DNA of 64,000 bases from Escherichia coli (GTDB taxonomy: Bacteria; Pseudomonadota; Gammaproteobacteria; Enterobacterales; Enterobacteriaceae), in the NCBI RefSeq assembly GCF_036507355.1, contig NZ_AP027877.1. One strand, written 5' to 3'. Positions 54,601 to 57,600 of this stretch are shown here, one piece after another (positions within the stretch are counted from its first letter, which is position 1; each line of letters begins with the position of its first letter). A program made the position numbers.

Positions 54601-57600
54601 ACAATACGCTGGCAACGAAAATGGCTGTGCAGATCCCGACAATACGTGGATTAGAGTGATAACCCAAATTCATTGATATCGTTTCACTAATGATCGCACC
54701 ATTAGCAGAGATATAGGCATAAGTGAGGATATAGAGAACAAAGGCAACGGTAATACCGCTGATAATGTTCCAGGTGTTACCGATTAAATCTTTGGTGATG
54801 GTGTTAAAACTGGAGCCGACGGGATAATTTAAATTTGCTTCTAATAACAATAACCCGGAATGAAGCATTGAAAACCAGGCAATGATAAGGATAAAGGCAC
54901 CCCAGAAAAACCAGGCACCGGCAAGATCCACAGGTAAAGCAAACATACCTCCACCGATTACTGTACCTGCTATAACCATAACACCCCAAAATGCAGAGTG
55001 CTTTTTTTCAGCTTGATCAGTCATGATGCCACCTTTAGAGGAAGGCTATTTTTGTTATTGAGGATGTAGGGTAAGAGAGTGGCTAACATCCTTATAGCCA
55101 CTCTGTAGTATTAATTAAACTTCTTTCAGTTTTGCGGTGAAATGACGCAATACTTTCGGTTCGTAGGTAAAGGTTAACCCTTTAATATTCGCCGCGTTCT
55201 CTTTCACATGTTTAAAGGCTTCAATAATGAAGTCCATATGTGTTTGAGTATATGTTGCGCGCGGAATGGTTAAACGCAGCAGTTCAGCCGGGCATGGCAG
55301 TTGTTTACCGGTTTTCGGATCGCGGCCTAACAGGAAAGAGCCAATTTCTACCGCGCGGATACCGGCGACTTTATATAGCTCGCAGGCCAGCGCCTGTGCC
55401 GGGAACTGATCTGCCGGGATATGCGGCAGCAGTTTACCGGCATCAACAAATGCCGCGTGACCGCCCGCCTGCTGGCAGACAACGCCAATCTCTTCCAGAC
55501 CATCGACCAGATACTGCACCTGCGCAATACGATAAGCCAGCCAGTCCAGATTCATGCCGTCATACAGACCTACGGCCAGACGCTCCATCGCGCCGCCTTC
55601 CAGGCCGCCATATGTCGGGAAGCCTTCCTGTACCACGCAAAGGGTTCTGCACTCGGTGTACACATCAAAGAAACTGTCGTCTTTCATGCACAGCAAGCCG
55701 CCCATCGGCACCATCGCATCTTTCTTGGCGGACATCGCCAGCATATCGGCATATTTGTAGGTTTCGCGGGTGATCTGCTCGATGGTCCAGTCTTTGTATT
55801 CTGCTTCACGCTGCTTGATGAAATAGGCGTTTTCAGCAAAGCGTGCAGAGTCCATTACCACCGGAATATCGTATTTCTTCGCGATGCTGTACATCGCTTT
55901 TAAGTTTGCCAGTGAAACCGGCTGACCGCCTGCGGAGTTACTGGTGATGGTTGCAACGATATACGGCACGTTATTCGGACCAACTTCTTCAATACCGCGT
56001 TCTAATCCCTCAAGGTCAAAGTTGCCTTTAAAGTCGTAACGCACGCCCGTATCGAAGGCTTCTTTGATATAGACGTTACGCACGGTACAGCCGTTAATCT
56101 GGCTATGGCCCTGCGTGGTATCGAAGAAATAGTTGGAGAACGCCACCATTTTGCTGCGATCCAGGCCTTTTTCCTGCTCGCGCTTTTTAATCAGTACCGG
56201 AATATAGATTTGCTCTGCACCACGGCCCTGGTGAGTCGGAATGGTGTATTGATAACCAAAGATATTTTTCACTGACTCGGCTAACGCATAGTAGCTGCGG
56301 CTGCCGCTGTAAGCTTCGTCGCCGCGCATCATCGCGGCCTGCATACTTTGGGTTACCGCCCCGGTGCCGCTGTCGGTCAGTAAATCGATAAACACATCTT
56401 CGCTATCCAGCAGGAACGGATTCATACCGGATTTAATAATTGCCTCTTCACGATAAGCGCGAGTGGTACGTTTTACTGGCTCAATAACACGAATGCGGAA
56501 CGGTTCAGGGAGATGTTTAAAGTTTTCCATTACATAATCCTTCATTTATTTTAATTACAGTGATCCCTGTGAATATTACATCTGCAATATCCATTTATTC
56601 GCCATGTATATATGCAAGCACCATCATTTACTAACACAAGTAAATAAACGAGAGATGGCCTTTGCAAAAGGCAAATTTAAGATATAGCAAACAAATAGAT
56701 CACATTGAATCTAATCGGTTCGGCTCTGGTGATGGCTACAGAAGGGCAAATCAAGGGCGGTGATCGACAATCTTGTTGTCAATATTGAACCATTTTGAGG
56801 TCACACATATATGTAAGATATTCATAATGCACTTATCCTCGAAAGACACGAAGCTACAGTATAATACTCAAGAAATTTGTCTATTCTGAAATTGTTTAAA
56901 TGTGAATCGAATCACATTTAGTTATTGGCTGTGATTATGAGAACTGACACATAAAGAATATTAACAAAAATACTTGAATGGATAATTTTTTTAATTTTTA
57001 TCATTATTGTTGAAGATGATGGCATTGATTGTAGGGGGCCATTATAAGGAGCTGTTTCCCACGTTGACGTGTCGCGGTTTACTCACCTCATTACCAGGTC
57101 GATGACCTGATAGGGAAATGACGTAAAAAGACAAATAACTCTATAAATGAGCGAAATTTGATAGTTGATATTTAAATAGTAACCTTATTATTACTACAAC
57201 TTTCATATGGATGAGGGGAAAGAAAATGGTTGATAACGTAACTGTTGGCAGTGTATGTGCACAATCTCCTTCTTTCATGCCTGATTTGGATGGAGGAAAA
57301 AATAAAACTCAATTGATCGTTGACGATATAGTGGCGTATCTTAAAAATCCTTCAGTTTATTCACTTGAAAAAGAGGGGCCGTTAAATCATTTTGTTAATT
57401 ATTGTTCTGAAGTTGAGTTAGGTTTCTATAGCGATGGTGCATATTCAATTCTTGTCTCCAGATCTAAGCAACAACCTGAAGGTATGATTTTAACCGTAAG
57501 CGATGCAGACGCAATCAATATAGTACATATTTCCGTATCTCCAGTGCTTATAAAATTCCTGGATGATATTTTTACTTGCCTTCATACGTACCCTGATGAT

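What the first reader, a model, noticed from the sequence alone, without database searches (positions are those of the whole stretch)
56751..56990. tnaC leader peptide and regulatory spacer preserved next to the foreign insertion
The 24-codon leader with the regulatory Trp codon (TGG, codon 12) and the spacer before tnaA are intact, so tryptophan-induced antitermination should operate. The inserted ORF at 57226 begins roughly 400 bp upstream of tnaC on the opposite strand, so the tna promoter/CAP region and the insertion's promoter are divergent neighbours and could share regulation.
Basis: partly seen in the sequence, partly recalled or inferred. Interest (0 to 1): 0.3.

Follow-up and report, generated by a model that had tools for sequence, protein, structure and literature searches.

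The report
Intact tna control region beside espL3
This is the ordinary, fully intact control region of the E. coli tryptophanase (indole) operon, sitting next to a well-known variable gene (espL3, "O-island 152") found at the same spot in about one in seven E. coli genomes.

Summary
tnaC lies on the minus strand at 56825..56751. It has 24 codons, with TGG as codon 12 and a TGA stop. Its peptide is identical to K-12 TnaC. The 220-nt tnaC-tnaA spacer has no indels, but it lies at 56531-56750, outside the stated interval. The interval itself holds tnaC, the tna core promoter and the CRP site (core 56901-56916).

The neighbouring ORF (57226-59388, plus strand, 720 aa, Pfam ShET2) is an intact copy of espL3. 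This gene is O-island 152 in O157:H7 EDL933 (Z5199/Z5200) and the pseudogene ECs_4642 in Sakai. The same arrangement occurs in 765 of 5,426 complete E. coli genomes.

It is a replacement, not a simple insertion. 2,621 bp (36% GC) stand where K-12 has an unrelated 151 bp. The boundaries fall exactly at the mnmE stop codon and at the outer edge of the CRP core. No tna element from the CRP core inward is displaced.

Shared use of the CRP site is not supported by sequence. The 60 bp next to it are the least conserved part of the island leader, and the best promoter candidate lies about 245 bp away. Published O157 arrays do show both neighbours to be strongly RpoS-dependent, so co-expression is plausible.

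Verdict: already known, low interest.

The parts
55115..56530 (-). tnaA (tryptophanase) coding sequence. The canonical ATG is at 56530; the ORF list extends to an in-frame upstream ATG at 56545.
   Evidence: colinear with annotated tnaA of K-12-like 9FA and O157 TR01, 97.1% identity over 54900-56916 (tnaB end, tnaA, tna leader), no gaps.
56531..56750 (-). tnaC-tnaA spacer, 220 nt. It holds the rut region directly after the tnaC stop, the Rho termination zone and the tnaA Shine-Dalgarno. It lies outside the finding's coordinates.
   Evidence: same length as K-12, no indels; two window-private substitutions (56721, 56596). The rut position comes from PMC10941005.
56751..56825 (-). tnaC leader peptide gene: 24 codons plus TGA. 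Trp12 codon is at 56790-56792. W12, D16, I19 and P24 are all present.
   Evidence: critical residues per PMC10941005.
56826..56849 (-). tna 5' UTR with the tnaC ribosome-binding site (GAGGAT). The transcription start is inferred at 56849.
   Evidence: In K-12 the start is 24 nt upstream of the tnaC ATG (Deeley 1982, confirmed genome-wide; PMC2760140). The position is transferred by gap-free alignment. Inference, not measured here.
56858..56863 (-). Probable tna -10 hexamer TATACT (K-12 has AATAAT at the same position). On the plus strand a perfect TATAAT (56860-56865) overlaps it.
   Evidence: Read from the sequence and the alignment. Assigned by position relative to the K-12 start site. The promoter scan listed an overlapping TTCAGA-18-TATTAT on the minus strand.
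56898..56919 (.). CRP (CAP) site: AAATGTGATTCGATTCACATTT on the tna strand. The core TGTGA-N6-TCACA is at 56901-56916. Its centre is about 59.5 bp upstream of the inferred start.
   Evidence: the only zero-mismatch match in the 64-kb window; the core is identical in all 13 sequences. tnaC is described as a class I CRP promoter in PMC5957442.
56917..59537 (.). The variable segment (espL3 island, equal to O-island 152): 2,621 bp, 36.3% GC. It replaces an unrelated 151-bp mnmE-tna spacer of K-12-type strains.
   Evidence: homology to K-12 stops at 56916 and resumes at 59538, and the two alleles show no significant similarity; present in 765 of 5,426 genomes, single copy.
56920..56979 (.). Island DNA next to the CRP site. 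This is the least conserved block of the espL3 leader.
   Evidence: mean pairwise identity 0.81, 33 of 60 invariant columns among 8 espL3-bearing loci.
56980..57029 (.). Conserved AT-rich block of unknown role, 71-120 bp from the CRP centre.
   Evidence: mean identity 0.95, 45 of 50 invariant columns.
57119..57225 (+). Conserved block directly upstream of espL3. It holds the Shine-Dalgarno (GAGGGG) and the best promoter candidate: ATGACG-18-TATAAA, with C one base before the hexamer (TCTATAAAT at 57140-57148).
   Evidence: mean identity 0.96, 96 of 107 invariant columns. The promoter was assigned by eye and not found by the strict scan. It is altered in the more divergent L013 allele. Inference.
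57226..59388 (+). espL3: intact 720-aa protein of the ShET2/EspL family of type III effector-like proteins.
   Evidence: translation. (Pfam PF07906, E=1e-47). (same slot as espL3 pseudogene ECs_4642 in Sakai). (100% match to BED24575.1 / WP_338387958.1).
59469..59515 (.). Hairpin with 16-bp arms, followed by a T-run on the mnmE-sense (minus) strand and preceded by an A-run on the plus strand. Likely a shared terminator for the convergent espL3 and mnmE genes.
   Evidence: (inverted repeat I3, 94% complementary). Differs from the K-12 mnmE terminator.
59538..60902 (-). mnmE. Homology with K-12 resumes exactly at its stop codon.

Best explanation
The interval holds, on the minus strand, the standard control unit of the E. 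coli tnaCAB operon in an unaltered state.

Inferred mechanism, by identity to K-12:
- cAMP-CRP binds the site at 56898-56919 and activates a class I type promoter starting near 56849.
- Ribosomes translate tnaC (56825-56751).
- With free tryptophan, the TnaC nascent chain (W12, D16, I19, P24) blocks RF2 action at the UGA stop. The stalled ribosome hides the adjacent rut site from Rho, and transcription continues through the 220-nt spacer into tnaA and tnaB.
- Without tryptophan, Rho terminates in the spacer.

The neighbour is espL3 (O-island 152), a low-GC, fast-evolving gene of the ShET2/EspL family. It is one of two alternative fillings of the mnmE-tna gap in E. coli. The long allele (2,621 bp) and the K-12 allele (151 bp) are unrelated in sequence. 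They switch exactly at the mnmE stop codon and at the outer edge of the CRP core, so the tna module from the CRP core inward is the same in both.

espL3 most likely has its own promoter in the conserved 107 bp before its ATG, about 300 bp from the tna start. It is probably silenced or activated independently. If it is co-expressed with tna in stationary phase, sigma-S is a more likely cause than the shared CRP site.
For: Shown directly:
- The TnaC peptide is identical to K-12, with a TGA stop.
- The spacer is 220 nt with no indels.
- The CRP core is perfect and identical in 13 of 13 loci, with no indels between it and tnaC.
- Homology with K-12 ends at 56916 and resumes at 59538. The two alleles show no significant similarity.
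- In espL3-less genomes, megablast alignments of the control region begin at query base 4, which is 56916.
- The long allele is in 765 of 5,426 genomes, single-copy and always linked to espL3.
- The same slot is annotated espL3 in Sakai and O-island 152 in EDL933.
- Pfam ShET2 match. GC is 36% against 51-57% in the flanking genes.
- Conservation profile of the 400-bp divergent region.

From the literature:
- The tna start site (PMC2760140).
- Class I CRP control (PMC5957442).
- The TnaC/RF2/rut/Rho mechanism (PMC10941005).
- tnaLAB are highly expressed and RpoS-dependent in EDL933, which has the same layout (PMC2907692).
Against: - Nothing here is functional evidence. Start sites, CRP binding and attenuation are all transferred from K-12 by alignment.
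- The window has two private substitutions in the spacer. One (56721) is 30 nt after the stop, in the rut area. Its effect is untested.
- K-12 sequence upstream of the CRP core is missing. Any element there would be lost. One candidate is the TorR binding reported for the tna promoter (PMC5720752), whose position I could not retrieve.
- The espL3 promoter assignment is by eye. The strict scan found no more promoter-like sites than shuffles give (14 against 12.5). The candidate -10 is altered in the most divergent allele, L013.
Confidence: 0.88

Rival explanations
1. Shared CRP site. The single CRP site at 56898-56919 activates both tna and a divergent espL3 promoter lying within about 40-95 bp on its other side. 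Catabolite repression would then control both.
For: - The island begins immediately at the CRP core.
- In window and O157 alleles the island supplies AAA as the distal flank. This makes the 22-mer match the symmetric consensus flanks, where K-12 has GAT.
- The 5' part of espL3 (ECs4643) rose 3.4-fold at the glucose-exhaustion transition in Sakai (PMC2241611).
- A GATAAT at 56981-56986 would put CRP near -84.
Against: - The 60 bp flanking the site on the espL3 side are the least conserved block (0.81 identity).
- The scan hit CTGACA-16-AAAAAT (56944-56971) is destroyed in other alleles.
- The T6 of GATAAT is not conserved.
- The conserved promoter-like block is about 245 bp away.
- A rise at glucose exhaustion is equally expected for a sigma-S promoter.
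Confidence: 0.1
2. Co-regulation without a shared site. espL3 and tna are separate promoters that both depend on sigma-S (directly or indirectly), so they come on together at entry to stationary phase.
For: - In EDL933 early stationary phase, Z5200 (5' part of espL3) is 53-fold and Z5199 is 8-fold higher in wild type than in an rpoS mutant. tnaL/A/B are 443-, 189- and 750-fold higher in the same arrays (PMC2907692).
- The candidate espL3 -10 (TCTATAAAT, 57140-57148) carries the upstream C recalled as typical of sigma-S promoters. That consensus is from my own knowledge; the sequence is.
Against: - Array data come from O157, where espL3 is a pseudogene.
- More than 1,000 genes changed in that rpoS mutant, so the effect may be indirect, for example through indole or other regulators.
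- No start site is known, and there are no data for this strain.
Confidence: 0.4
3. The island alters tna regulation. Replacing the K-12 upstream 151 bp with AT-rich foreign DNA changes tna expression. Possible routes are H-NS spreading, loss of upstream K-12 elements, or a stronger CRP site.
For: - All K-12 sequence upstream of the CRP core is gone.
- The new flank is 64% A+T overall and richer still near the site.
- The distal CRP flank differs (AAA against GAT).
- TorR is reported to bind the tna promoter (PMC5720752).
Against: - tna is strongly expressed in EDL933 with this layout.
- The CRP core, the core promoter and their spacing are unchanged.
- No tor-box-like sequence with 2 or fewer mismatches was found in the K-12 151 bp.
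Confidence: 0.15
4. Bidirectional core promoter. The plus-strand TATAAT (56860-56865) overlapping the tna -10 fires a divergent transcript towards espL3. CRP-driven recruitment to the tna direction would then suppress it, giving antagonistic rather than shared control.
For: - A perfect TATAAT lies on the opposite strand.
- The implied start separation of about 23 bp is one of the common spacings for bacterial bidirectional promoters. CRP placed at -60.5 was shown to activate one direction and repress the other (PMC12825309).
Against: - There is no -35 or TGn element for it.
- The transcript would have to read through the CRP site and about 350 nt of leader.
- The predicted anti-correlation conflicts with the array co-expression.
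- There are no start-site data.
Confidence: 0.06

Closest known systems
E. coli K-12 tnaCAB promoter and leader (CRP-dependent promoter, TnaC arrest peptide, Rho/rut attenuator)
   Same: Identical 24-residue TnaC and UGA stop. Identical CRP core. The same gap-free spacing from CRP site to start to tnaC to tnaA. A 220-nt spacer.
   Different: - One synonymous tnaC change and two private spacer substitutions.
- The -10 region carries the common non-K-12 allele (TATACT). K-12 has a lineage-specific patch giving TGn-AATAAT.
- The distal CRP flank is AAA rather than GAT.
- Everything upstream of the CRP core is unrelated DNA.
O-island 152 of O157:H7 EDL933 (Z5199/Z5200), equal to espL3' (ECs4642/ECs4643, ECs_4642) of Sakai
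   Same: Same slot between mnmE and tnaC, same orientation and same junctions. Same leader region and same kind of terminator hairpin.
   Different: - Here the gene is an intact 720-codon ORF. In Sakai it is annotated as a pseudogene, and in EDL933 it is split into two ORFs.
- The ORF is 93% identical in nucleotides to the O55:H7 allele and 97% to O157 strain TR01.
- The terminator loop has an 11-nt insertion relative to TR01.
ShET2/EspL family type III effectors (EspL, EspL2, OspD3, SenA)
   Same: Pfam PF07906 domain at residues 141-383 with E=1e-47. RefSeq names orthologues as ShET2/EspL2 family effector toxin.
   Different: Secretion, catalytic residues and any target are untested here. There is no NCBIfam match and no solved homologue by sequence.
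Divergent or bidirectional CRP-controlled promoter regions (as studied in PMC12825309)
   Same: Two divergent transcription units flank one CRP site. The tna -10 is near-symmetric.
   Different: No evidence that the second unit starts within reach of the CRP site. The conserved espL3 leader block is about 245 bp away.

Membership tests
tna operon leader (TnaC ribosome-arrest attenuator) | Short leader ORF with conserved W12, D16, I19, P24, ending in a stop codon read by RF2 (UGA) | tested here: met
   translation; alignments; residue list from PMC10941005.
tna operon leader (TnaC ribosome-arrest attenuator) | rut region directly after the tnaC stop, and a spacer of about 220 nt before tnaA | tested here: met
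   Spacer 56531-56750 is 220 nt with no indels against K-12. The first 100 nt after the stop have C 24 and G 16. One private A>G at 56721.
tna operon leader (TnaC ribosome-arrest attenuator) | CRP site about 60 bp upstream of the start site (catabolite-sensitive class I promoter) | tested here: met
   Perfect TGTGA-N6-TCACA at 56901-56916, at the same distance from tnaC as in K-12. Start site transferred from PMC2760140.
tna operon leader (TnaC ribosome-arrest attenuator) | Tryptophan-dependent ribosome stalling and relief of Rho termination | not testable with these tools
   Needs reporter or biochemical assays.
espL3 / O-island 152 | ShET2-family ORF between mnmE and tnaC, divergent from tnaC and convergent with mnmE | tested here: met
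espL3 / O-island 152 | Same junctions as in O157:H7 (outer edge of the CRP core; mnmE stop codon) | tested here: met
   Continuous 97.5% alignment to O157 TR01 across 54900-61199; alignments.
ShET2/EspL type III effectors | Translocation by a type III secretion system, and cysteine-protease catalytic residues | not tested
   Only the Pfam domain match was obtained. No solved relative by sequence.
Mobile-element insertion (IS, transposon or integrase island) | Terminal inverted repeats, target-site duplication, or a recombinase gene | tested here: not met
   No terminal repeats or duplications at 56917/59537. The only long ORF is espL3. The 306-bp leader is single-copy per genome.
Divergent promoters sharing one CRP site | A second promoter whose start lies about 40-95 bp from the CRP centre on the opposite side, conserved among carriers | tested here: inconclusive
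   The adjacent 60 bp are poorly conserved and the scan hits are not conserved. No start-site data are available.

The most novel reading that the evidence does not exclude
The tna control region and espL3 form a coupled regulatory unit. Because the island begins exactly at the CRP core, and both neighbours are among the most RpoS-dependent genes in O157 arrays, espL3 expression might be tied to tna promoter activity. The link could run through the shared CRP site, through a bidirectional -10, or through local H-NS or supercoiling relief. That would connect an effector-like gene to the tryptophan/indole and catabolite state. Conversely, the island's consensus-like AAA flank and AT-rich DNA might retune tna (indole) expression in the 14% of E. 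coli that carry it.
Probability: 0.12. Interest if true: 0.35.

Novelty: already known. Interest (0 to 1): 0.12.

Why it matters
It matters little as it stands. The tna attenuator is a textbook system and is intact here. The neighbouring gene is the catalogued espL3 / O-island 152 polymorphism.

Two points are modestly useful:
- The 'insertion' is really an allelic replacement. Its boundary sits exactly at the CRP core, so K-12-based maps of tna upstream regulation do not transfer beyond that core to espL3-bearing strains, which include O157:H7.
- Published arrays show both divergent neighbours to be strongly RpoS-dependent. A simple reporter experiment could settle whether indole metabolism and this effector-like gene are co-controlled.

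Tried and rejected
- Rfam scan of 56300-57400 at a permissive threshold: only a chance-level hit (RAGATH-35, E=0.56).
- Search for terminal repeats or target duplications at the island ends: none. A mobile-element insertion is therefore rejected.
- Local alignment of the K-12 151 bp against the island: score 25 against shuffles of 22.4 ± 2.6, so no homology. The apparent resemblance of the two mnmE terminators (shared TTCTGACTnTCAGA) is not significant.
- Tor-box (CTGTTCATAT) search in the K-12 and window upstream regions: only hits with 3 mismatches in K-12, so inconclusive. The Bordi 2003 and Deeley 1982 papers are not held.
- Second CRP-like site at 56936-56951 (2 mismatches): chance level (26 matches against 27 expected in the window) and not conserved.
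- Genome-contig scan with EspL3, meant to find outgroup species and decide insertion versus deletion: it returned only one mis-binned metagenome contig with the same E. coli-type locus. The ancestral state is undecided.
- Exact-protein contig look-up for the source genome: not on record. The cluster look-up gave BED24575.1 on a 4,643,937-bp E. coli genome.
- NCBIfam and PDB sequence searches for EspL3: no hits.
- The idea that the -10 region differences from K-12 are linked to the island: rejected. Most espL3-less strains share the window's core promoter, and the odd allele is K-12's.
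Full report
WHAT IS THERE

On the minus strand the window reads tnaB (53777-55024), tnaA (55115-56530), a 220-nt spacer (56531-56750), tnaC (56751-56825) and the tna promoter region. Then, on the plus strand, comes a 720-codon ORF (57226-59388). It is followed on the minus strand by mnmE (59538-60902) and yidC (61008-62654).

The small ORF translates to MNILHICVTSKWFNIDNKIVDHRP*. The TGG for Trp12 is at 56792..56790, and the stop is TGA. This is the TnaC peptide that RefSeq annotates (WP_001364348.1) at the same place in all 11 RefSeq/PGAP-annotated comparison strains I fetched. In Sakai tnaC sits at the same place under its own accession. A gap-free alignment with a K-12-type chromosome covers 54900-56916 at 97.1%. 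tnaC differs from K-12 by one synonymous change, and the spacer is the same length.

The spacer named in the title lies below 56751, outside the stated interval. What the interval 56751-56990 actually contains is tnaC, its 5' UTR, the core promoter, the CRP site and about 70 bp of the neighbouring island.

THE tna CONTROL ELEMENTS

The only perfect TGTGA-N6-TCACA in the 64-kb window is at 56901-56916. On the tna strand the 22-mer reads AAATGTGATTCGATTCACATTT (56919..56898).

The K-12 tna start site is 24 nt upstream of the tnaC ATG (Deeley 1982, confirmed by genome-wide mapping; PMC2760140). Transferred through the gap-free alignment, that is 56849. The CRP centre then lies about 59.5 bp upstream, which agrees with the class I description of this promoter (PMC5957442).

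I compared 13 loci: the window, six espL3-bearing genomes and six espL3-less genomes. The CRP core and the stretch down to about -25 are identical, and there are no indels anywhere between the CRP site and tnaA.

The cluster of differences from K-12 around the -10 (window TATACT, K-12 TGn-AATAAT) turned out to be a peculiarity of the K-12 lineage. Four other espL3-less strains carry the window-type core promoter. It is not linked to the island.

The residues that the literature identifies as essential (W12, D16, I19, P24) are present. So are the UGA stop read by RF2 and the position of the rut site directly after the stop (PMC10941005). The window has two private substitutions in the spacer, at 56721 (30 nt after the stop) and 56596. 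Their effect is untested.

The 389-nt control region is present at 80% or more coverage in 5,393 of 5,426 complete E. coli genomes.

THE NEIGHBOUR

The 720-aa ORF has a ShET2 N-terminal domain (Pfam PF07906, E=1e-47). Its GC content is 36%, against 51-57% in tnaA and mnmE.

In O157:H7 Sakai the same slot is annotated espL3 (ECs_4642), a pseudogene described as a 'T3SS effector-like protein EspL'. In the literature it appears as espL3' (ECs4642/ECs4643, Z5199/Z5200) and as O-island 152 of EDL933. An identical protein is on record as BED24575.1 / WP_338387958.1 from a 4.64-Mb E. coli genome.

The long allele occurs in 765 of 5,426 complete genomes. Its 306-bp leader is single-copy and found in exactly those 765 genomes.

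The gene is unusually diverse. Amino-acid identity between alleles falls to 79%, dS reaches 0.26, and dN/dS is 0.4-0.6. In this window it is intact.

INSERTION OR REPLACEMENT

Homology with K-12 stops at 56916, the last base of the CRP core, and resumes at 59538, the mnmE stop codon. Between these points the window has 2,621 bp and K-12 has 151 bp.

The two segments are not detectably related. The local alignment score is 25, against 22.4 ± 2.6 for shuffles. All six espL3-less strains share the 151-bp type, and all espL3 carriers share the other. In the population search, alignments in espL3-less genomes begin at query base 4, which is 56916. There are no terminal repeats, target duplications or recombinase genes.

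So this is an allelic replacement whose ends coincide with functional boundaries. It is not an insertion into the K-12 spacer.

One consequence is that every tna element from the CRP core inward is retained at unchanged spacing.

A second consequence is that anything K-12 has upstream of the core is absent here. TorR has been reported to bind the tna promoter (PMC5720752). I could not retrieve the site's position, and a tor-box search was inconclusive.

In the window and O157 alleles the island supplies AAA as the distal flank of the CRP site. Other carriers have AAT and K-12-type strains have GAT.

DO THE NEIGHBOURS SHARE REGULATION?

The two units are divergent, with ATGs 401 bp apart. I aligned eight espL3-bearing loci and scored conservation by block:

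| Block | Mean pairwise identity |
|---|---|
| CRP 22-mer | 0.97 |
| 56920-56979 (next to the CRP site) | 0.81, the lowest |
| 56980-57029 | 0.95 |
| 57030-57118 | 0.90 |
| 57119-57225 (before the espL3 ATG) | 0.96 |

The last block contains the ribosome-binding site and the best promoter candidate, ATGACG-18-TATAAA with TCTATAAAT at 57140-57148. That is about 245 bp from the CRP centre, too far for direct class I or class II activation. This assignment is by eye. The consensus scan found no excess of promoter-like sites (14 against 12.5 expected), and the hexamer is altered in the most divergent allele.

The one scan hit near the CRP site (56944-56971) is not conserved. Sequence therefore gives no support for a shared CRP site, though it cannot exclude one.

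Published expression data are more suggestive of co-expression:
- In EDL933 early stationary phase, Z5200 (the promoter-proximal part of espL3) and Z5199 were 53-fold and 8-fold higher in wild type than in an rpoS mutant. tnaL/A/B were 443-, 189- and 750-fold higher in the same arrays (PMC2907692).
- In Sakai, ECs4643 rose 3.4-fold at the transition where glucose runs out (PMC2241611).

These data fit separate sigma-S-dependent promoters at least as well as a shared CRP site, and the effects may be indirect.

A further possibility comes from a perfect TATAAT on the plus strand (56860-56865) overlapping the tna -10. The implied divergent start would be about 23 bp from the tna start, a common spacing for bidirectional promoters. 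At such promoters, CRP at -60.5 activates one direction and represses the other (PMC12825309). That would predict antagonism, which does not match the arrays. I rate it low.

VERDICT

- The interpretation that attenuation should operate is supported by sequence identity.
- The 'foreign insertion' is the known espL3 / O-island 152 allele, and it abuts the CRP core rather than lying 400 bp away.
- Shared regulation is unproven. Circumstantial published support exists for co-expression, but there is no sequence support for a shared site.
- The feature is already known and of low interest.

Noticed in passing
L009-L012 (espL3-less strains MS6193, O111:H8 7-16 37A, B1W1, 09-00049); corresponds to window 56752: The tnaC stop codon is TAA in these strains, but TGA in the window, K-12 and O157. 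The literature stresses RF2/UGA for the arrest mechanism, so this natural polymorphism may affect basal or induced levels.
   Followed up: no
window 56856-56877 versus L002 (K-12-like) and L008: The K-12 lineage carries a private patch of about 7-9 substitutions between the -35 and -10 of the tna promoter, creating TGn-AATAAT. The window, O157 and most other strains share a different, commoner allele (TATACT). The K-12 reference promoter is therefore the atypical one.
   Followed up: partly
window 56860-56865 (+): A perfect TATAAT on the strand opposite to tna overlaps the tna -10. It would place a divergent start about 23 bp from the tna start, a typical bidirectional-promoter geometry.
   Followed up: partly
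window 59469-59515: Hairpin with 16-bp arms between the convergent espL3 and mnmE genes. It is unrelated to the K-12 mnmE terminator. It carries an 11-nt loop insertion relative to O157 TR01, and the mis-binned contig L013 shares that insertion.
   Followed up: partly
window 57226-59388 versus L001, L004, L005, L007, L013: espL3 alleles within E. coli are very divergent (amino-acid identity down to 79%, dS up to 0.26, dN/dS 0.4-0.6). The adjacent tna leader is nearly invariant. The 107 bp before the espL3 ATG are better conserved than the ORF itself.
   Followed up: partly
L013 (JAFACO010000474.1, labelled 'MAG: Bacillota bacterium'): This 2.8-kb contig is an E. coli-type tnaC-espL3-mnmE locus, 92% identical to the window. 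It is evidently mis-binned in that metagenome-assembled genome.
   Followed up: yes
hit H13, NZ_CM173849.1 (strain 1332KP): An IS1A element is annotated between mnmE and tnaC in an espL3-less strain. This is a real insertion in the gap, and it may or may not separate the tna promoter from upstream DNA.
   Followed up: no
window about 40800-47700: ORFs colinear with the Sakai espY5, espX3 and espY4 effector-like genes. The espY4-like gene appears split into two overlapping ORFs (45255-46982 and 46897-47682), suggesting a frameshift.
   Followed up: no
window 56721 and 56596: Two substitutions in the tnaC-tnaA spacer are private to the window among the 13 loci compared. The first (A>G on the tna strand) is 30 nt after the tnaC stop, in the rut area.
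   Followed up: no
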